A DNA stretch of 64,000 bases from Ostreococcus lucimarinus (taxonomy: Eukaryota): assembly GCA_000092065.1 (NCBI GenBank), contig CP000586.1. The stretch is one strand, 5' to 3'. Below are positions 41,993-55,134 of this stretch, one piece after another. The position numbers were made by a program, and so were the translations under genes. Position 1 is the stretch's first letter. Each line of letters begins with the position of its first letter. The notes under the pieces were generated by a model. It did no database searches. It was given only the letters and a program-made list of their open reading frames with translations, and was not told the origin of the DNA.

Positions 41993-42153
41993 GGTGTAAA
42001 CGCCGCAGCGCGCGGACGCGCGCGGACCAGAGAATGAGGGCTCGATCGAAGCATCTTGCGCGCGGAGACTAGGGGTACGTCGGAGATTGTACAACCGCGA
42101 ATGTATATTAAGAGCGTGCGGATACTTGCGTGCTACTGCTGATGCTAGAAAGG

Positions 42154-45100
42154 TTAAATATTTGCGTCGGGCGCAGACGCAGCCGCGCGGGCTCGCCGCG
42201 CGCGGAATCGACGCTGAAGTTTTAAGACGACGAGCATGACGCTCATGGAAATTGGCTTGCCGTCGAGATCAAACAATTCGTTCTCGTCGCCTTCTTCTGC
42301 GATTTCCATCTCGCGAATGGACGCAAAAGAGTCCCCGCGAAGTTCATCGGCGGCTTGTTCTTTGCGAGAAAGTTCTCTGACGAGAGTCGCTCTTCGACGG
42401 ACTTTGTTTCGAAGTCTCAAGAGAGAAGCCCGTTTGGCGTTTCTCCGATCCTCCTCGAGTTCGCGGCGAATTTCGAGCGGGAGGTAGTTGAGATCCACAC
42501 CCATAGCCTTGGCCGTAAAAGCCTGCAAGAGCTCGGTGTAATGAAGAAACCTCGACCCTCCTTGTAGATTGAGCGATCGAACGTGGTTGAGCATGCCCAA
42601 GTCAGTGACGCGCTTGCCCTTCAAACCCAATGGTTTTGGCGTGGCGAGAATGATGGCCTTTACGTCGATCGCGCTGACGAAACCGGTGAGATCTGGGTCG
42701 AACTTTTTCCAAACTCTGCGGAAAGCCTTGACGTCTTCAGGAGTCACGTTCTCATTCTCAGCTTCCTTTCTACTCATCGAATAGTTATCGAGCACGACAG
42801 CGATGAGTAAGTTGAGAATAATGAACGAAGAGAAAGCGACAAAGCTGACAAAGTAAACTGGAGCGACGGCGGTGCCGCAACACGTCCCGATGGCGCAATC
42901 GAAAGAAGCGTCGCAGTTTTTCTTGTTCATGCAATCATTCATGATCTCTTGCCACCCCTCGCCGGTCAACATCCGCAAAAGCGTGGAGAGGGAATTTCCA
43001 AAAGTTTTGAAGTTTGCGTGCCTATTGAGCGCTTCGCCATACGCGAGACGCCCGAAGACTTGTGTGCCTAATATGGCGTATATAAAAAACAGCAGCGCCA
43101 ACAACAGAGATATGTTGCCGAGCGCAGGAATTGTCATCACCAGCGTCTGGAACAACGTGTTCAATGATTTCCACTTTTTCACCATACGGAAAACTCTGCA
43201 GATGCGCAGAGCGCGGAACGCGCTAGATCCCGTTCCCGACTGCAAAATTGCACCCAAGATGGACGTTACGACGATGATAAAGTCGAACACATTCCAACCG
43301 GATGAAAAGTAACGTCGCGGGTACAGCGCGCCAATTTTCATCATCGCTTCAACTGCAAACGCAGCCGTGAAGATGTAGTTCAACACATCCAATGCAAACT
43401 TCTTTGAGGAGCTGTCGTGATCCGTCTCCGTCATGAGCACCACGGTGTTAATGAAGATGATAACCATGATGCTCGCATCAAATCTTGTGTCGTTGATCAA
43501 TTGGAAGAGCTTTGCGCGCCACTTTTGATGAGGCGGTCTTCTGAAAAATGATTGTCGAGCGGTGAAGTTCCTGTTGCGCTGCTGAGCAACCCACCTTGCC
43601 TGTGACTCGCTCATAATGGTGCGCGTCAGCGACGTCGTCGATATCTTCAAAAAGTTGTCGATGACGATACCGATGCACATATTGAACAAGAAGAAGTTCG
43701 ACAGAACGATAAAAATGAGGAAATACCACGTCGCGACTGGAGTACGATCTCGCACGGGCGCCACATCCGTGCCCACGGCGTCAGCTGCGTTGAACATAGT
43801 CACTGTCCACCCTTCGCCAGACGTCGTCTCAAACAACGTGAGCATTGCTCGTGGGAAAGAGTCAAAGTTGCTGTCAGCACTCTCCCAATCTCGAGTGACA
43901 TAAACCGCAGATGTGTAGCTGCCAGTGCATGCAGATTCGGTCGTTTTGGTGTAGTCGTTGCACGAAGACGTTATGACATCCCAAGTCCGCACACTCGTGC
44001 CGTTTGACCAAGAATCGACGCACGCCGATTTAGTGAGAATCGTGGGATCGGAGCAACTTTTAAACTTACCCATGAACAACGACATTCCTGCGATAGCAAA
44101 TATGATCCACACAATCAACGATACCAGAAGCACGTACACGAGACTCGGAAGCGATGCAATGAGCGCGTTGATTACCACTTTTAACCCTTGTACTCGCCCG
44201 AGAAGTCGAAGCGGTCGCAAAACGCGCAAAGTACGTAACGCACGAACCCATTTAAGATCCGCGCTGGATCCGAGACCCATACCGAGCAATCCGAAAAACA
44301 CGATAGTGCCATCGAGAACGTTCCACGGGTTCTTCAAGTACGAGTACTTATCGGCGTTGAACATGCCTAACGCGATCCACTTCATCAACAACTCCACCAC
44401 AAATGCAGAAGTGAAACAGTAATCAAGAATTTCTGCTCTCTCCTCAAAGTTTGGATTGTCCATATTCTCTGGCGTCTCCCAACACATGGTTATACTCGAG
44501 GCAATGATCAACATAAGAATGAACCAGTCAAATCGCCTGTCGTCCGCGATCGCGAAGCACGCTTTACGGACTGGGTGCGATGGCTTGAACAATCCAAAAA
44601 AGCTGCTTTGTTCAAACTTAGTGAGCGGAACTTTACTAAGCGCCCCTGGCTGCTTCTTCTGCATGTCCTTCGGACTCATAATGACGCTGGTTGTCTCAGC
44701 GCTACTTTCTTCCTCAATCATCTTTCTGGCTCGCTGCAATCTCAAATTTTCAACTTTAGCCGCTGCTTTTCTCTTCTCTCTCTTCAGCAATTCGTGGGCA
44801 AAATGTGCAAATCTCGTCGCAGTTTGGGATGGCTCATTATTTGCGCTATCATTCGACTCACGACTACGGACACTGTCCGATTTAGTCATTCGCATCCCAG
44901 CAAACACGCCAAAGATACTTTGTTTCTTCGCAGCCCTACTCTCTTGCAGTTGCTCTTGCAGGACTTCTTTGCGATTGTCAAAGTTGCTCAGCAAGATGGC
45001 GATGAGCGAGTTGAGAATGATAAAGTCGCCCAGAATGAGGACGACCACGAAATACAGAAGAGCGACTTTCGCGGTGGTGAACATGGTGTCATACATCACT

Positions 45101-47601
45101 AATGGCCAATCCTCGTGCGTGATGACTTGCACGACAGTAATAATAGCGTTGTTGAAGGTGTCAAAGTTCGACCGCGGCTTTGGGTCAATCTTACAGTAAT
45201 TGCCGCCAAAAAGTTGCATCCCGACGAGCGCAAAAATCAAAACAAATAGACACAAAATCGCTAGAAAACTCGATAAATCGACCAGAGTCTTCCAAATTGT
45301 TTTAAGCGTGCTCTGTAGAGACTGCCACGTTCGCATCAACTTGAGGATTCGGAAAACTCGGAGCGCGCGAAGGACGGTGAATTTTGACTTGCCTTCACCT
45401 CCATTCAAGCCGAGTTCAATACAAGACACGAGCACAATCCCCGCATCCAACCAATTCATGCGATCACGCACGTACTCAGGTATACCAAGCGCTACGACTT
45501 TAATCAATAATTCAAACATGAAAATCGCAGTAAACGCCAGATTCGCGTTTTCCAGCGCCTCTGAGTAACTGTTAGACATGCCGTCGTATTCCATCGCGAG
45601 CACGAGTGTGTTCAACAAAATACTGAAGTTGATGACCATGAAGAAAAAATCACCATCCACGAACTTCCGCGCACGTGGTTGTACGAAGTTCTTTATTCTG
45701 ACGAGTTGCGTTTTGATCCACTCGAGAGTTTGACTGCGTTTGTGGCGCACGACGGACGCGCTCATTGCTTCTCCTAACCCGTCATTCGTGGCACTTTCTG
45801 AGCGTGATAGCGCCTGGATAGCTCTTTCGAAGGTGGAGAAGCTCCCACTCGAGACTCTTTGCAACTCATCCATAATATTCGCGTCGTAAACCATGGTGAT
45901 GATGGCGAGTGCCAAGTTCAATATCACGAACGATCCAAAAAATATCACGGGCAGGAACCACATCACGACCGCAGGCGATACTGAATCTATGAGGTCTAAC
46001 ATCACGGGCGACCAATACTCGAGGGTTATCGTCTGGAAGATCACGAGCCAAGACCACCAGACGCTATCGAAACTCGCGTATCCATAGTTTGGATTTTCGT
46101 GATCTAAACACTCTTGGCCGCTGGGGCACTGCCACGCGGCTTGGGCGGTGGTTCCACATGCTTGATCTTCGTTCTTTTTCAGCAAAACTGCGTCACCAGA
46201 AGCGCGTTTGATGCATCGTACGTATTCTTGCGCCGTGTAACTCTCGCACGGCACGCTTGGCGGAAGTACATCGAAGCACCGTGTTCTCATCTTTCCGGCA
46301 AAGAACTGCACGCCAATGATACCGAAAATGCAGAAGAATAGCAAAAAGAATACAATCACGTTCGCAAGAAGTGGTAGAGACTTCAACATTGTCTCGATCA
46401 GCAATCGAAGCGATGGGAACATGCTAATCGTTCGCAGCGGACGCAGAATTCGCACTGTTCTTAAGGTGGACACGTTTGACCCCATATCGCCTGGCAGGAG
46501 GGCGACGACGGACACGATGACAATGCCAAAGTCCATCACGTTCCACGAGTCGCGTAAATACGCCCCCGAGTTTTTTGTATTCAATTTACCCACCACACCG
46601 AACGCTATCATCTTCAGCAACGCCTCGAGGGTGAATAAAATAGTGAACGTGAGTTCGCTCCGCTCCGCCGCGTCGTTCCTCGCCCCTCGCGTGGCAAACT
46701 GCCCGCACCCTCTACCCTCCAAGCGCTCGGGTTCGCTGAGGCACAGCAAAATCGTATTCGCAGCGATAATCAGCAGTACGATCCAATCAAACTCGTGTCT
46801 CTCGACGAGCTGAATGCAAAACTTGCGAATCGGGTTCTCCGCCCCGAACACCCCGAACGACTTTTCAGCGTAAATCTTCCCACTCACTCCCACGACTAAG
46901 CTATCCTCGCCCTCGATCGACGCATTTCCCGACGCTGACTCTTGCCTCGCCGCACTCACGTTCGCACTTCGTTCTTTCCCACTCTTCGTGTGTTCGCCCA
47001 AGCGATGATAAATGTCCACCAATTGTTCGCCTCGTTCGTCTCGCTCGCCGTCGTCGTCGCTTGAGTGGGAATCTCTCGCCCCGTCCCGATCGATGCCGTA
47101 ATACGATCCATCATCACCATCACCCTCATCGTCGGAATCGTCGCTCGAGCACGGCGCCGGTCCCGCGCGCGTCGCCGCTCCCGCGCGCCGCGTTTCGTCC
47201 TCCGTCTCGCGCTCGCCGCTCGAATTCCCATCGCTCGAATCCGCGCTCCCGTGTCGCATCACCAGCTCCGCGAACGCGACGGACGACAGCGACGCCCCCC
47301 CGCTCGCGCGTCTTCGTCCCTCGCGCGCGTTTTGCGACGCATCGCGCGCGACGAACGCACCGATCGTCCCCGCGCGTCGTGCCTCCGAATTCGCGTTCGC
47401 GTCGTCGTCGTCTTCATCGCGCGCCCTCGCGCCGCCGCGCGCGTCGCGCCGCCGCGTCGGCGCGTCGCCGGAGTCCGACTCCACGCCCCACCGGCTCGGC
47501 GCCATCGGCATCGCGCGCGGCGCGCGCGCGCGTCGTCGTCTGTCGGCCGGGGCGGCCGGTCTCGTGTCGCAGCGGTAAAAAACACGGACCACGTCGCGCA
47601 T
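42154..47601 (-). CDS. four-domain voltage-gated Ca2+ channel alpha subunit (Cav-like, EEEE selectivity filter)
   Basis: Four homologous 6-TM domains with arginine-ladder S4 segments (RTVRILRPLRTI; LRALRVFRILKLMR; VRALRTLRVLRPLRLL; RALRICRVFRMVKK). Pore loops TLEYW / THEDW / TSGEGW / TGEGW give Glu in all four domains. There is a C-terminal IQ-like basic motif. The ORF-track start is a GTG; the first ATG is at 47601 and the true start is uncertain. Confidence 0.85.
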   Translation of the reverse strand: MRDVVRVFYRCDTRPAAPADRRRRARAPRAMPMAPSRWGVESDSGDAPTRRRDARGGARARDEDDDDANANSEARRAGTIGAFVARDASQNAREGRRRASGGASLSSVAFAELVMRHGSADSSDGNSSGERETEDETRRAGAATRAGPAPCSSDDSDDEGDGDDGSYYGIDRDGARDSHSSDDDGERDERGEQLVDIYHRLGEHTKSGKERSANVSAARQESASGNASIEGEDSLVVGVSGKIYAEKSFGVFGAENPIRKFCIQLVERHEFDWIVLLIIAANTILLCLSEPERLEGRGCGQFATRGARNDAAERSELTFTILFTLEALLKMIAFGVVGKLNTKNSGAYLRDSWNVMDFGIVIVSVVALLPGDMGSNVSTLRTVRILRPLRTISMFPSLRLLIETMLKSLPLLANVIVFFLLFFCIFGIIGVQFFAGKMRTRCFDVLPPSVPCESYTAQEYVRCIKRASGDAVLLKKNEDQACGTTAQAAWQCPSGQECLDHENPNYGYASFDSVWWSWLVIFQTITLEYWSPVMLDLIDSVSPAVVMWFLPVIFFGSFVILNLALAIITMVYDANIMDELQRVSSGSFSTFERAIQALSRSESATNDGLGEAMSASVVRHKRSQTLEWIKTQLVRIKNFVQPRARKFVDGDFFFMVINFSILLNTLVLAMEYDGMSNSYSEALENANLAFTAIFMFELLIKVVALGIPEYVRDRMNWLDAGIVLVSCIELGLNGGEGKSKFTVLRALRVFRILKLMRTWQSLQSTLKTIWKTLVDLSSFLAILCLFVLIFALVGMQLFGGNYCKIDPKPRSNFDTFNNAIITVVQVITHEDWPLVMYDTMFTTAKVALLYFVVVLILGDFIILNSLIAILLSNFDNRKEVLQEQLQESRAAKKQSIFGVFAGMRMTKSDSVRSRESNDSANNEPSQTATRFAHFAHELLKREKRKAAAKVENLRLQRARKMIEEESSAETTSVIMSPKDMQKKQPGALSKVPLTKFEQSSFFGLFKPSHPVRKACFAIADDRRFDWFILMLIIASSITMCWETPENMDNPNFEERAEILDYCFTSAFVVELLMKWIALGMFNADKYSYLKNPWNVLDGTIVFFGLLGMGLGSSADLKWVRALRTLRVLRPLRLLGRVQGLKVVINALIASLPSLVYVLLVSLIVWIIFAIAGMSLFMGKFKSCSDPTILTKSACVDSWSNGTSVRTWDVITSSCNDYTKTTESACTGSYTSAVYVTRDWESADSNFDSFPRAMLTLFETTSGEGWTVTMFNAADAVGTDVAPVRDRTPVATWYFLIFIVLSNFFLFNMCIGIVIDNFLKISTTSLTRTIMSESQARWVAQQRNRNFTARQSFFRRPPHQKWRAKLFQLINDTRFDASIMVIIFINTVVLMTETDHDSSSKKFALDVLNYIFTAAFAVEAMMKIGALYPRRYFSSGWNVFDFIIVVTSILGAILQSGTGSSAFRALRICRVFRMVKKWKSLNTLFQTLVMTIPALGNISLLLALLFFIYAILGTQVFGRLAYGEALNRHANFKTFGNSLSTLLRMLTGEGWQEIMNDCMNKKNCDASFDCAIGTCCGTAVAPVYFVSFVAFSSFIILNLLIAVVLDNYSMSRKEAENENVTPEDVKAFRRVWKKFDPDLTGFVSAIDVKAIILATPKPLGLKGKRVTDLGMLNHVRSLNLQGGSRFLHYTELLQAFTAKAMGVDLNYLPLEIRRELEEDRRNAKRASLLRLRNKVRRRATLVRELSRKEQAADELRGDSFASIREMEIAEEGDENELFDLDGKPISMSVMLVVLKLQRRFRARRARAAASAPDANI

Positions 47602-47809
47602 CGGATCGCGTCGCGACGCGCGTCGCGGCGTCGCGCGCTCGCGCACTCGCGCGCGCGCGAACGCGCGGAACGACGCGGGAGAGGCGTTTACACCGCGCGA
47701 AGACGCGCGAGACGCGCGAAAGCGGCGCGCGAAACGGTGAAGACGAACGAGTCGAACGAATCTCCGCGCGGGTGGTTGAAAACGCCGCGACGAGGACGAG
47801 GCGCGCGCG

Positions 47810-48658
47810 ATGACGACGCCGCGCGCGCGAACGGAGCGACGGGAGGGATCGCCGCGACCGTCGACGGCGCAGAGTGAGGCGAATCAGCGAACGCCGCACG
47901 GAGGAAGGGCGCTGTCGGAGGCGTACTTCGCCACGGGGGCGACGGCGTTTTTGGAGCGAGCGCTGACGCGACGCACGGGGGCGCACGCGGCGACGACGGT
48001 CGGGACGTTTCATCGAGGAAAACGAGGGAAGGGGGGGGTGAGAAGACGACTGGGAGGTGCGACGACGTCGACGGTGGGCGATGCGCGCGGTCACGGGGGC
48101 GGGGCGCGGGAGGTGGTGCGCGTGCGATGGGACCCGGAGAATCCGTACGCGGCGACGTTCGGCGAGCTGTTGGACGTGTTTTGGGATAGTCACGATCCCA
48201 CGCACGCGCCGATCGATGATTTGCACGCGAGCGTGGTTTTTGTGACGAGCGAAAGCCAGCGTGAGGAGACGCTGCGGAGCATCGAACAGAAGACCGACGC
48301 GTATCGCGACGCGGACGTGCTCACGCGCATGGAGTCGGCCGTCGACTACAGATTTACGGAGGCGCCGGAGCGATTTCAAAGAAGGTTGCAGCGCGCGAGC
48401 GAAGACGAGGGCAGTAGAGAGGGATCGATGCGAAACGGCGGCAGCGCGCGATCGTCGATGGATGAGCGCGGGAGCCCGAATGGAAGTACGAGCGAAGCAT
48501 CGCAAAGCACGGATGCACCGCAAAGAACGAGAACTCTTTTGGGTTCGGTGAACGCGACGCTTCATTGGGCGGTGGATTGGACGAAAGTGATCGCAGTGCA
48601 CGGGGCAGCGTATTTAGTTCGAGGCGGCGCCGAAAACGAGCGCAAGACTCCGAGATGA
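47810..48658 (+). CDS. MsrA-fold protein lacking the catalytic cysteine (peptide methionine sulfoxide reductase A-like)
   Basis: Aligns to MsrA (AYFATGATAFLERAL..VVRVRWDPENPYAATFGELLDVFWDSHDPT). The GCFWG active-site motif reads GATAF, so the nucleophilic Cys is absent. Confidence 0.55.
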   Translation: MTTPRARTERREGSPRPSTAQSEANQRTPHGGRALSEAYFATGATAFLERALTRRTGAHAATTVGTFHRGKRGKGGVRRRLGGATTSTVGDARGHGGGAREVVRVRWDPENPYAATFGELLDVFWDSHDPTHAPIDDLHASVVFVTSESQREETLRSIEQKTDAYRDADVLTRMESAVDYRFTEAPERFQRRLQRASEDEGSREGSMRNGGSARSSMDERGSPNGSTSEASQSTDAPQRTRTLLGSVNATLHWAVDWTKVIAVHGAAYLVRGGAENERKTPR

Positions 48659-53886: not shown

Positions 53887-55134
53887 TTAGTACTGCCGCG
53901 CCAAAAAGTCTTCGAGCTCCCTGTCCGCGGCAGCGTCGGCAATTTCGTCTGCGTTTGACCCTTTCCTTTTGACCTGCTTCGCCGGCAAATTTGATCGAAA
54001 CATGATAGGTTTTCCTGTCTTTTTATGAGCCGGCGCGCGCGCTCGTTCGAGCGAGCGCTGAAACCTCAACTCTTGCTCACGCTTTTGTTGACGTGCGCGT
54101 TCCTCTCGAGCCAAACGCCTACGCTCCTTTTCCTTTCGCTTTTCCAAATCAGCGACGATGTCTGGCGGTAACGTATCGATCGTCGCGAAATACTCTTCCA
54201 TTTTTGCTTCGATATTTGTCAACATTTGCAAAACGCTGATGCTCGGGTCGTAGTCAAACCCACAATCGACGTAGACTTCTGTGACACGCTTGGTCAATTC
54301 CTTCAGCTCGTTCTCGATCTCGTCTTCGTCGCCCGTATCGCCGCTCGTGAGCTGCTTTGACAATCGCTCGCCCTTACGTTCCTCCGCGTCGATTGCTTCT
54401 TGTAGTTGCTGGATTTGTTCGCGCAATGCGGTCATCTCCGTCTCCATTCGCGTCTTCGTGCTGGTGTGTTTAGATTGGACGGTTTGAAGCATCTCCTCCG
54501 CCTCTCGAACGCTCTGAATGAGAAACAAATTTTGTTCCTCCAACGCCGCAAAGGCGCGCAAAAGCTGCTCAGGCTGCGTGAAATACATCGGCGCATTGTC
54601 TTTCGCGTGCTGTTCGAACCACTCGCTCGGCGTCAACGCGTCCAAAAACTCCTTATACTTGTAACATTCCTTCAACTTTTCCTCCTTTCGATTCAGCTCT
54701 TGCGTCGCGCTCGCGATGTCGTTTTGCAAGCGTTTCATCTCCTTCATCTTTTCATGTTTCGCCCGCGCCTCGCGCTCCGCCGCGCTCACCGCTTCGCGCA
54801 CTTTCGCATCGTTATCCTTCAAAAATTCATCGAACCGCGCGTGATCCTCCTCGAGCATGCTCTCAGATTTCTTCAACGCCTCCTCCCGTCTCGCCGCCTG
54901 CGCCTCGAGCTTTCCAATCTCCTTCAACTTGTTATCGATGTCCATCTGCACCAAGAATATCTCCCGTTTCCGCGCCACGAACGCGCGCACCGATTCTCTT
55001 CCGTCCACTCGCGTCGTCTTCACCGCGCGCGCCGTCGCGCTCTCGCCGGGCACGATCGCGCGCGCGTCTCCGTCCACGCGCGCGATCGACGTTTCGTGTC
55101 CCCGTCCCGCGACCGTCCCGCTCGCGCGCGCCAT
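53887..55134 (-). CDS. coiled-coil protein, DUF4200-like (CCDC42/CFAP73-family, putatively flagellar)
   Basis: REIFLVQMDIDNKLKEIGKLEAQAARREEALKKSESMLEEDHARFDEFLKDNDAKVREAV matches the conserved DUF4200 N-terminal block. The remainder is heptad coiled coil. Confidence 0.45.
   Translation of the reverse strand: MARASGTVAGRGHETSIARVDGDARAIVPGESATARAVKTTRVDGRESVRAFVARKREIFLVQMDIDNKLKEIGKLEAQAARREEALKKSESMLEEDHARFDEFLKDNDAKVREAVSAAEREARAKHEKMKEMKRLQNDIASATQELNRKEEKLKECYKYKEFLDALTPSEWFEQHAKDNAPMYFTQPEQLLRAFAALEEQNLFLIQSVREAEEMLQTVQSKHTSTKTRMETEMTALREQIQQLQEAIDAEERKGERLSKQLTSGDTGDEDEIENELKELTKRVTEVYVDCGFDYDPSISVLQMLTNIEAKMEEYFATIDTLPPDIVADLEKRKEKERRRLAREERARQQKREQELRFQRSLERARAPAHKKTGKPIMFRSNLPAKQVKRKGSNADEIADAAADRELEDFLARQY

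What the first reader, a model, noticed from the sequence alone, without database searches (positions are those of the whole stretch)
42154..47601. 1830-aa four-domain voltage-gated cation channel with EEEE pore
It has four 6-TM repeats, each with an arginine-ladder S4 and a pore loop carrying Glu at the selectivity position (TLEYW, THEDW, TSGEGW, TGEGW). It also has a C-terminal IQ-like motif. An EEEE filter predicts Ca2+ selectivity (Cav-like). The long disordered N-terminus (approx. 300 aa, acidic/Ser-rich) is unusual and the true start is unresolved.
Basis: partly seen in the sequence, partly recalled or inferred. Interest (0 to 1): 0.5.

Follow-up and report, generated by a model that had tools for sequence, protein, structure and literature searches.

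The report
This is a real, intact gene for a four-domain voltage-gated, probably calcium-selective ion channel of the tiny marine green alga Ostreococcus (lucimarinus type), but the same gene has already been catalogued and dissected in a published survey, so it is ordinary rather than new.

Summary
An uninterrupted minus-strand ORF (42154..47646) encodes four Ion_trans repeats (Pfam E=4.6e-234). Each repeat has an Arg/Lys-ladder S4 and an intact charge-transfer centre. Alignment to solved Cav and Nav structures puts a Glu at the selectivity position in all four pore loops (E543/E845/E1278/E1563), with Asp846 at the DII n+1 site, as in Cav channels.

Three points need qualifying.
- **Family:** it belongs to no animal subfamily. 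Profile scores to Cav3, Cav1, Cav2 and Nav1 are nearly equal (760-793 bits), against 326 for NALCN. Its III-IV linker has Nav length, and 'TIMS' aligns with the Nav IFMT inactivation particle.
- **Start codon:** comparison with a 90%-identical orthologue locus points to ATG 47511 (M46), giving 1785 aa rather than 1830. No 5' exons are needed.
- **IQ-like motif:** the C-terminal motif is strongly conserved in 10 orthologues but matches IQ only at consensus level.

The S4 segments, TIMS motif and pre-IQ peptide match 'Ostrel1' (Ostreococcus lucimarinus XP_001418450.1) in Pozdnyakov et al. 2018. The presence of Nav/Cav in flagella-less Ostreococcus was already noted by Brunet & Arendt 2016.

Verdict: already known, low interest. 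No electrophysiology on this protein turned up.

The parts
42154..47511 (-). Preferred coding sequence of the four-domain channel (1785 aa plus stop), starting at ATG M46 'MPMAPSRWGVESD'
   Evidence: ORF. The start comes from the protein alignment with the 90%-identical orthologue P0138, which begins 'MAMTPTRWGVESD'. The DNA alignment with L003 shows conservation beginning at this ATG; the sequence upstream is full of indels. Coordinates were checked.
47512..47646 (-). Upstream extension of the mechanical ORF (GTG..M16..M45), probably 5' UTR or promoter and not coding
   Evidence: No conservation and many indels against L003, several not a multiple of three. GC1/2/3 is 0.74/0.67/0.83 over the first 150 codons of the ORF, which include this extension, so a stop-free stretch here is no evidence of coding (inference). 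The divergent PMSR gene starts at 47810.
46837..47511 (-). N-terminal cytoplasmic tail (residues 46-270), low-complexity and rich in A/S/G/D/R/E, with two small conserved islands (F-x-A-R around residue 101, and HRLGEHTKSGKE at 213-226)
   Evidence: Composition. Conservation pattern in A1 (R101, G217, S222 and G223 are invariant). No Pfam hit.
45871..46836 (-). Domain I (S0-S6). S4 is STLRTVRILRPLR. The pore loop is TLEYW, with filter Glu543 at 46018..46020
44977..45684 (-). Domain II. S4 is TVLRALRVFRILKLMR. The pore loop is THEDW, with filter Glu845 and n+1 Asp846 at 45109..45114
43648..44589 (-). Domain III. S4 is KWVRALRTLRVLRPLRLLGR. It has a long Cys-rich S5-P turret. The pore loop is TSGEGW, with filter Glu1278 at 43813..43815
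43492..43647 (-). III-IV linker (52 aa) of Nav length. 'TIMS' (43609..43620) aligns with the Nav1 'IFMT' inactivation particle
   Evidence: The alignment to the Nav1.1 and Nav1.5 linkers needs only two single-residue gaps. Met1345 is invariant and the position after it is Ser or Thr in all 10 orthologues. The published table lists IG = TIMS and docking site A/Q/N for Ostrel1.
42772..43491 (-). Domain IV. S4 is FRALRICRVFRMVKKWK. The pore loop is TGEGW, with filter Glu1563 at 42958..42960
42496..42723 (-). Proximal C-terminal domain: an EF-hand-like/GPHH-like region (residues 1642-1694) and the pre-IQ segment LLQAFTAKAMGV (1706-1717)
   Evidence: The GPHH hit is weak, 18 bits against a cutoff of 26.8. 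The region aligns with the post-S6 C-terminal domains of Cav2.3, Cav1.3 and Cav2.1 up to the pre-IQ segment. The pre-IQ string is identical to Ostrel1 in PMC5824947 Table S3.
42187..42219 (-). Distal IQ-like motif LQRRFRARRAR (residues 1810-1820), 10 residues before the stop codon
   Evidence: Q1811, R1812, F1814, R1815 and R1817 are invariant, and L1808, K1809 and L1810 nearly so, in an otherwise variable tail. It fits the [ILV]Qxxx[RK] consensus. There is no PDB or Pfam hit.

Best explanation
[quoted passage not shown] It belongs to a Mamiellophyceae-specific lineage. It is the Ostreococcus lucimarinus-type orthologue, catalogued as 'Ostrel1' (XP_001418450.1).

Proposed mechanism (inferred from sequence, not measured):
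- Depolarisation moves the four Arg/Lys-rich S4 helices through intact charge-transfer centres and opens the S6 gate.
- A ring of four glutamates, with Asp at the DII n+1 position, selects for Ca2+ as in Cav channels.
- A Nav-length III-IV linker carries a hydrophobic Ile-Met followed by Ser (TIMS). It plausibly plugs a receptor site (A/Q/N) and gives fast inactivation.
- An EF-hand-like/pre-IQ region and a conserved distal IQ-like helix plausibly confer Ca2+/calmodulin feedback.

The channel would give this roughly 1 um, non-flagellate cell brief depolarisation-triggered Ca2+ entry for stress or environmental signalling, rather than flagellar control. The gene is intron-free in the window and most likely starts at ATG 47511.
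For: **Shown here**
- Four Ion_trans domains, E=4.6e-234.
- Full-length similarity to solved Nav and Cav channels: 646 bits to Nav1.7 with the single sequence, and 760-793 bits to Cav3.2, Cav1.2, Nav1.7 and Cav2.3 with the orthologue profile.
- The filter Glu residues align to the Cav filter Glu in all four loops and are invariant in 10 orthologues, together with D846.
- The S2 F-x-x-E-x-x-x-K motif and the S3 Asp are invariant in all four sensors (F338/E341/K345/D372, F709/E712/K716/D734, F1082/E1085/K1089/D1112, F1430/E1433/K1437/D1455). The S6 Asn residues N577, N879, N1322 and N1612 are also invariant.
- The S4 segments carry 5, 5, 7 and 7 basic residues.
- The III-IV linker aligns to Nav1.1 and Nav1.5 with only two single-residue gaps, TIM over IFM.
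- Neighbouring genes are eukaryotic, and their order is conserved in the orthologue loci.

**Identity**
- The S4 strings match Ostrel1 and differ from the O. tauri entry and from the 90% orthologue; the IG 'TIMS' and pre-IQ strings also match Ostrel1 but are shared with those two.

**Literature**
- E/E/E/E is the dominant FVCC filter, and the combination with Nav-like inactivation gates is inferred to be ancestral (PMC5824947).
- An Asp at the filter +1 position (in a Cav3 channel; its domain is not stated in the abstract read) governs Ca2+ versus Na+ selectivity (PMC10120453 abstract; PMC5824947).
Against: - The searched library returned no electrophysiology for this protein or any Mamiellophyceae orthologue. 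Selectivity, voltage dependence and inactivation are all inferred.
- An EEEE ring alone does not guarantee Ca2+ selectivity. Bacterial NaChBac-type channels with TLESW filters are Na+-selective (own knowledge; see PMC2229573 and PMC7041947 listed). The DI loop here, TLEYW, resembles them.
- The first residue of the TIMS motif is polar. PMC5824947 warns that having the motif does not guarantee fast inactivation; NALCN has it and does not inactivate this way.
- The IQ-like motif lies about 90 aa beyond the pre-IQ segment. The published table scores the canonical IQ as 'Deletion', and the motif gives no database hit.
- The organism was named by matching peptide strings in a supplementary table, not by a whole-sequence comparison.
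Confidence: 0.8

Rival explanations
1. It is a voltage-gated channel, but Na+-permeable or non-selective for cations rather than Ca2+-selective.
For: The single-sequence PDB search ranks Nav1.7 first, at 646 bits against about 584 for the best Cav. The DI turret and loop (CPSGQEC..NPNYGY.SFD..TLEYW) resemble Nav1 TQDYW and bacterial TLESW. The III-IV linker is Nav-like. Bacterial EEEE channels can be Na+-selective (own knowledge; PMC2229573 title and abstract).
Against: No Lys or Ala at the DIII or DIV filter positions; all four are Glu and invariant. Asp846 is at DII n+1, as in Cav1/2/3 and unlike Nav (PMC5824947). With the orthologue profile, Cav3.2 and Cav1.2 score slightly above Nav.
Confidence: 0.17
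2. It is a voltage-insensitive leak or store-linked channel of the NALCN/Cch1 type.
For: It has four-domain architecture and comes from a non-animal organism. NALCN also retains an inactivation-gate-like motif without inactivating this way (PMC5824947).
Against: NALCN scores far lower: 276 and 326 bits against more than 760 for Cav and Nav. All four S4 segments are charge-rich with intact charge-transfer centres, whereas PMC5824947 names NALCN, Cch and Nax as the three known voltage-insensitive groups in its discussion of S4 Arg/Lys content. The filter is EEEE, not EEKE.
Confidence: 0.02
3. It is an annotation artefact: a fusion of two two-domain genes, a pseudogene, or a chance ORF in GC-rich DNA.
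For: The window's GC-rich DNA produces many long spurious overlapping ORFs. The 5' 135 nt of this ORF are probably such an extension.
Against: The single frame has no stops over 5.4 kb. Orthologues of 1686-1870 aa were found in at least 10 lineages, and the gene neighbourhood is the same in the orthologue locus examined. Alignment to Nav1.5 and Cav1.2 is continuous across domains. Functional residues are invariant. The GC dip inside the gene comes mainly from GC1 and GC2, that is, from hydrophobic amino-acid content.
Confidence: 0.01

Closest known systems
'Ostrel1' = Ostreococcus lucimarinus XP_001418450.1, and its O. tauri orthologue 'Ostret1' CEF98340.1 (Pozdnyakov et al. 2018, Sci Rep 8:3539, PMC5824947)
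   Same: The four S4 strings, the IG 'TIMS' and the pre-IQ 'LLQAFTAKAMGV' match Ostrel1, apart from one residue dropped from the DIII string in the extracted table text. The S4 strings differ from Ostret1 and from the 90% orthologue, whereas TIMS and pre-IQ are shared with both. I take it to be the same gene.
   Different: The published table scores the IQ motif as 'Deletion'. Here a conserved IQ-like motif appears about 90 aa further downstream in all 10 orthologues. The length and start of the RefSeq model could not be compared.
Animal high-voltage-activated Cav1/Cav2 channels
   Same: EEEE filter with Asp at DII n+1. The DII, DIII and DIV loops match almost residue for residue (T-x-E-D-W, x-E-G-W, T-G-E-x-W). 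The post-S6 EF-hand-like/pre-IQ region aligns.
   Different: No AID-type beta-subunit site was recognised in the I-II linker (sequence inspection; PMC5824947 infers the ancestor lacked it). The III-IV linker is Nav-like. The IQ is not at the canonical position. There is no specific phylogenetic affinity (PMC5824947).
Animal Nav1 channels
   Same: The III-IV linker has the same length, with TIMSESQ aligned to IFMTEEQ. The DI turret and T-x-[DE]-Y-W loop are similar. Nav1.7 is the top single-sequence PDB hit.
   Different: The filter is EEEE, not DEKA. The docking-site middle residue is Q, not F.
Animal Cav3 (T-type) channels
   Same: Cav3.2 is the best profile hit (793 bits). The DI loop TLEYW compares with TLEGW, and DII T-x-E-D-W matches.
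   Different: Cav3 channels have Asp in the DIII and DIV filter positions: Cav3.3 DIV reads 'stgdnw', and EEDD overall is own knowledge. Here those positions are Glu. The III-IV linker alignment to Cav3.2 needs gaps.
Chlamydomonas reinhardtii CAV2, the flagellar voltage-dependent Ca2+ channel
   Same: A green-algal four-domain channel; this is the only algal FVCC for which a physiological role is cited in the papers read here (PMC11085791).
   Different: CAV2 acts in flagella, and Ostreococcus has none (PMC7935092; PMC4685582). The Chlamydomonas entries in Table S3 have different IG and IQ strings. Orthology was not tested.

Membership tests
[quoted passage not shown] | Four homologous 6-TM Ion_trans repeats in one polypeptide, in the order DI-DIV | tested here: met
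   Four Ion_trans stretches, E=4.6e-234. Multi-domain collinear alignments to Nav1.5, Cav1.2 and Nav1.7.
[quoted passage not shown] | Arg/Lys-rich S4 in each domain, with a charge-transfer centre (S2 aromatic and acidic residues, S3 Asp) | tested here: met
   5, 5, 7 and 7 basic residues. F/E/K/D positions are invariant in all four domains.
[quoted passage not shown] | Voltage-dependent cation current | not testable with these tools
   Requires electrophysiology.
Calcium-selective (Cav-type) pore | An acidic residue at the filter position of all four P-loops (EEEE or EEDD) | tested here: met
   E543, E845, E1278 and E1563 align to the Cav filter Glu and are invariant.
Calcium-selective (Cav-type) pore | Asp at the n+1 position of DII | tested here: met
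   THEDW aligns with TGEDW and TQEDW. D846 is invariant. The criterion comes from PMC5824947.
Calcium-selective (Cav-type) pore | Measured PCa much greater than PNa | not testable with these tools
   No recordings were found in the searched literature.
Animal HVA Cav1/Cav2 subfamily | An AID (Cav-beta binding helix, QQxExxLxGYxxWIxxxE) early in the I-II linker | tested here: not met
   The I-II linker (residues about 590-655) has no GY..WI motif after IS6. Only 'TLEWIKTQ' occurs, about 60 aa downstream and next to DII, and it lacks the Tyr. This rests on sequence inspection; the AID consensus is from own knowledge.
Animal HVA Cav1/Cav2 subfamily | Specific sequence or phylogenetic affinity over the other subfamilies | tested here: not met
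   Cav3.2 793, Cav1.2 790, Nav1.7 772 and Cav2.3 762 bits, which is effectively a tie. The published phylogeny finds no close relation between protist and metazoan Cav.
Animal Nav1 subfamily | DEKA (or DEEA/DKEA) selectivity filter | tested here: not met
   The filter is EEEE.
Animal Nav1 subfamily | A hydrophobic-triplet-plus-Thr/Ser inactivation particle in a short III-IV linker | tested here: inconclusive
   The linker has the same length, and TIMS aligns with IFMT. The first residue is polar. Orthologues read SIMS, SIMT, TMMS and ALMS. Function is untested.
NALCN / fungal Cch1 clade | Charge-poor S4 segment(s), a Lys-containing filter (EEKE/EKEE), and closest similarity to NALCN | tested here: not met
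   S4 segments are charge-rich. The filter is EEEE. NALCN scores 276-326 bits against more than 760 for Cav and Nav.
Calmodulin-regulated channel C-terminus (pre-IQ plus IQ) | An IQ motif [ILV]QxxxRxxxx[RK] shortly after the pre-IQ segment | tested here: inconclusive
   The pre-IQ segment is present. The canonical IQ position was scored 'Deletion' by PMC5824947. A conserved LQRxFRxR motif lies about 90 aa downstream, but it gives no Pfam or PDB hit. Calmodulin binding is untested.

The most novel reading that the evidence does not exclude
The most novel reading not excluded: this channel gives a roughly 1 um, wall-less, flagella-less picoeukaryote true Ca2+-based action-potential-like excitability. 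The channel would combine a Cav filter, a Nav-type fast-inactivation gate and a displaced calmodulin-binding IQ helix that the published survey scored as deleted. That combination approximates the inferred ancestral eukaryotic four-domain channel, in a genetically tractable minimal cell.
Probability: 0.3. Interest if true: 0.5.

Novelty: already known. Interest (0 to 1): 0.15.

Why it matters
As a gene it adds nothing new. It sits in a genome the cited papers obtained from JGI and NCBI RefSeq. Its S4, inactivation-gate, docking-site and pre-IQ features are tabulated in PMC5824947. The oddity of a Nav/Cav homologue in flagella-less Ostreococcus is noted in PMC4685582.

[quoted passage not shown] Functional expression could test whether that combination really gives fast-inactivating Ca2+ currents, and what such a channel does in one of the smallest eukaryotic cells.

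Two small annotation points come out of this work: the probable start codon (ATG 47511) and a conserved distal IQ-like motif that the survey did not record.

Tried and rejected
- **Exact look-up of the 1830-aa product:** not on record, because the mechanical ORF starts at a GTG. The 1815-aa M16 version is on record.
- **Rfam and tRNA scans of the window:** nothing found, so they gave no help with taxonomy.
- **GC dip (47-52% against about 60%) as a sign of foreign origin or an outlier chromosome:** rejected. The drop is mainly in GC1 and GC2, reflecting hydrophobic residues. GC3 is 0.63, within the 0.62-0.77 range of the neighbours, and synteny with an orthologue locus is conserved.
- **M16, M130 or the GTG as start:** rejected in favour of M46. 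A conserved F-x-A-R island lies upstream of M130. DNA upstream of 47511 is not conserved and is full of indels.
- **Searches with the distal C-terminus (91 aa, 148 aa) and the N-terminal tail against PDB and Pfam:** no hits.
- **Cluster-member names for taxonomy:** only 'hypothetical protein', plus one 'voltage-dependent calcium channel L type alpha-1D'. The organism was identified instead from peptide strings in the supplement of PMC5824947.
- **Structure prediction:** not run. The protein exceeds the 1200-aa limit, and the tool returns no coordinates with which to inspect docking of the TIMS motif.
- **De novo phylogeny with Cav, Nav, NALCN and CatSper references:** not run, because reference sequences could not be imported. 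Profile bit scores and the published tree were used instead.
- **CatSper and TPC:** dismissed. CatSper subunits are single-domain (own knowledge); two-pore channel TPC1 scores only 87 bits.
Full report
**Observation**

The window carries an uninterrupted minus-strand ORF at 42154..47646, 1830 codons from a GTG. Pfam finds four Ion_trans stretches (E=4.6e-234, 773 bits), overlapping PKD_channel hits, and a sub-threshold GPHH hit after domain IV.

A hydropathy and regex scan shows four 6-TM repeats. The S4 ladders are at residues 396, 760, 1132 and 1478, and the quoted pore strings are at 541, 843, 1275 and 1561. The S4 segments carry 5, 5, 7 and 7 basic residues. The feature is real and far beyond chance.

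**Pore and gating residues**

Alignments to solved structures place a Glu at the selectivity position in every domain:
- DI: TLEYW aligns with Cav3.3 TLEGW and Nav1.7 TQDYW.
- DII: THEDW aligns with Cav1.2 TGEDW and Cav3.3 TQEDW (using reference strings printed).
- DIII: SGEGW aligns with Cav1.2 TFEGW.
- DIV: TGEGW aligns with Cav2.3 and Cav1.3 TGEAW.

In an alignment of the window protein with nine orthologues at 55-90% identity (A1), the following are all invariant:
- the filter residues E543, E845, E1278 and E1563;
- the DII n+1 residue D846;
- the S2 F/E/K and S3 D of each voltage sensor;
- the S6 Asn of each domain.

The filter is therefore EEEE with the Cav-type Asp next to the DII Glu. 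PMC5824947 and the abstract of PMC10120453 link an Asp at the +1 position to Ca2+ selectivity.

**What is not Cav-like**

The single sequence scores best against Nav1.7 (646 bits), ahead of Cav3.2, Cav2.3 and Cav1.x (about 575-584), with NALCN far lower at 276. With the orthologue profile the order becomes Cav3.2 793, Cav1.2 790, Nav1.7 772, Cav2.3 762 and NALCN 326. That is a tie among Cav1, Cav2, Cav3 and Nav1.

The 52-aa III-IV linker aligns to Nav1.1 and Nav1.5 with only two single-residue gaps. TIMSESQ lies over IFMTEEQ. M1345 is invariant and the residue after it is Ser or Thr in all ten sequences. No AID-like beta-subunit site follows IS6 (sequence inspection).

The protein thus combines a Cav-type filter with a Nav-type inactivation-gate region. 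It cannot be filed in any animal subfamily.

**Identity and prior knowledge**

Neighbouring genes are eukaryotic: an RSE1/DDB1/CPSF_A family protein, PMSR, DUF3456, 5-oxoprolinase, aldehyde dehydrogenase and others. The order CPSF_A-family gene / PMSR / channel / DUF3456 is kept in a 90%-identical orthologue locus.

The supplement of Pozdnyakov et al. 2018 (PMC5824947) lists the following for 'Ostrel1' = Ostreococcus lucimarinus XP_001418450.1:
- S4 strings STLRTVRILRPLRTISM / TVLRALRVFRILKLMR / RALRTL..RPLRLLGR / AFRALRICRVFRMVKK;
- IG 'TIMS';
- docking site A/Q/N;
- pre-IQ 'LLQAFTAKAMGV'.

These match the window protein, apart from one residue dropped from the DIII string in the extracted table text. 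The S4 strings differ from the O. tauri entry and from the 90% orthologue P0138; TIMS and the pre-IQ string are shared with both. The O. tauri strings match P0005, which is 60% identical.

That paper already reports three things. E/E/E/E is the dominant FVCC filter, chlorophytes included. Nav-like inactivation gates co-occur with Cav-like filters in protists. This combination is inferred to be ancestral.

Brunet & Arendt 2016 (PMC4685582) name Ostreococcus as an exception to the correlation between Nav/Cav channels and flagella. Ostreococcus is non-motile (PMC7935092).

**Start codon and 5' exons**

Eukaryotic translation needs an ATG. In-frame candidates are M16, M46, M48 and M130.

- A conserved F-x-A-R island around residue 101 lies upstream of M130, which excludes M130.
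- P0138 begins 'MAMTPTRWGVESD', aligned to the window's M46 'MPMAPSRWGVESD'.
- At the DNA level, conservation with locus L003 begins at ATG 47511. Upstream sequence is poorly alignable, with many indels.

The divergently transcribed PMSR gene starts at 47810. That leaves 298 bp and no room or need for 5' exons. The preferred CDS is 42154..47511, giving 1785 aa.

The roughly 225-aa tail is rich in Ala, Ser, Gly, Asp, Arg and Glu. It is poorly conserved except for the island above and a 'HRLGEHTKSGKE' motif.

**C-terminus**

The post-S6 region aligns with the C-terminal domains of Cav2.3, Cav1.3 and Cav2.1 as far as the pre-IQ segment. The published table scores the IQ motif as 'Deletion'.

All ten orthologues nevertheless share LKLQRxFRxR close to the C-terminus (10 residues before the stop in the window protein). 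Q1811, R1812, F1814, R1815 and R1817 are invariant in an otherwise variable tail. The motif fits the first half of the IQ consensus, but PDB and Pfam searches find nothing. It is a conserved, plausibly calmodulin-binding element, and that function is unproven.

**Other checks**

The GC dip inside the gene is mainly a GC1/GC2 effect of hydrophobic residues. GC3 is 0.63, against 0.62-0.77 in the neighbours. There is no sign of foreign origin.

The fusion and artefact readings are excluded by the full-length orthologues, the conserved gene neighbourhood in the orthologue locus examined, and the collinear multi-domain alignments.

**Verdict**

'Cav-like' applies to the filter only. Selectivity, voltage gating, inactivation and calmodulin regulation are inferred from sequence. 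The protein is about 1785 aa.

The gene is already known and already analysed in the literature. Interest is low.

Noticed in passing
window 53887..55134 (-): A 415-aa ORF hits Pfam DUF4200 (PF13863, E=5.8e-30). As far as I recall, this family includes cilia/flagella-associated coiled-coil proteins of the CCDC42/CFAP73 type. That would be unexpected in a flagella-less Ostreococcus, and the ORF lies only about 6 kb from the channel gene.
   Followed up: no
window 42187..42219 (-), and alignment A1: A conserved distal IQ-like motif (LKLQRxFRxR) is present in all 10 orthologues, although the published Table S3 of PMC5824947 records 'Deletion' for the IQ motif of Ostrel1 and Ostret1.
   Followed up: partly
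window 46969..47010 (-), residues 213-226: A short motif, HRLGEHTKSGKE, about 50 aa before S1 of domain I, is conserved across orthologues inside an otherwise unconserved low-complexity N-terminal tail. Its function is unknown.
   Followed up: no
proteins P0014-P0120: A very abundant family of 1710-aa four-domain channels in marine metagenomes and MMETSP is only 30-35% identical to this protein. It is presumably a separate paralogue or another picoplankton lineage. PMC5824947 also lists other Ostreococcus and Micromonas paralogues with unusual Arg- or His-containing filters.
   Followed up: no
window 42000..46000: Local GC falls to 47-52%, against about 60% in the rest of the window. Amino-acid composition explains most of it, plus a slightly lower GC3.
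   Followed up: yes
window 47810..48658 (+): The divergent neighbour's PMSR hit is weak and partial: 33.9 bits, covering profile positions 45-147 of 153. The orthologue loci call products of either 196 or 284 aa, so the gene model here is uncertain.
   Followed up: no
whole window: Many long overlapping ORFs occur on both strands, for example 47061..47813, 47065..47877 and 47414..48601. They are best read as by-products of 60% GC DNA, so mechanical ORF lists over-call genes here.
   Followed up: partly
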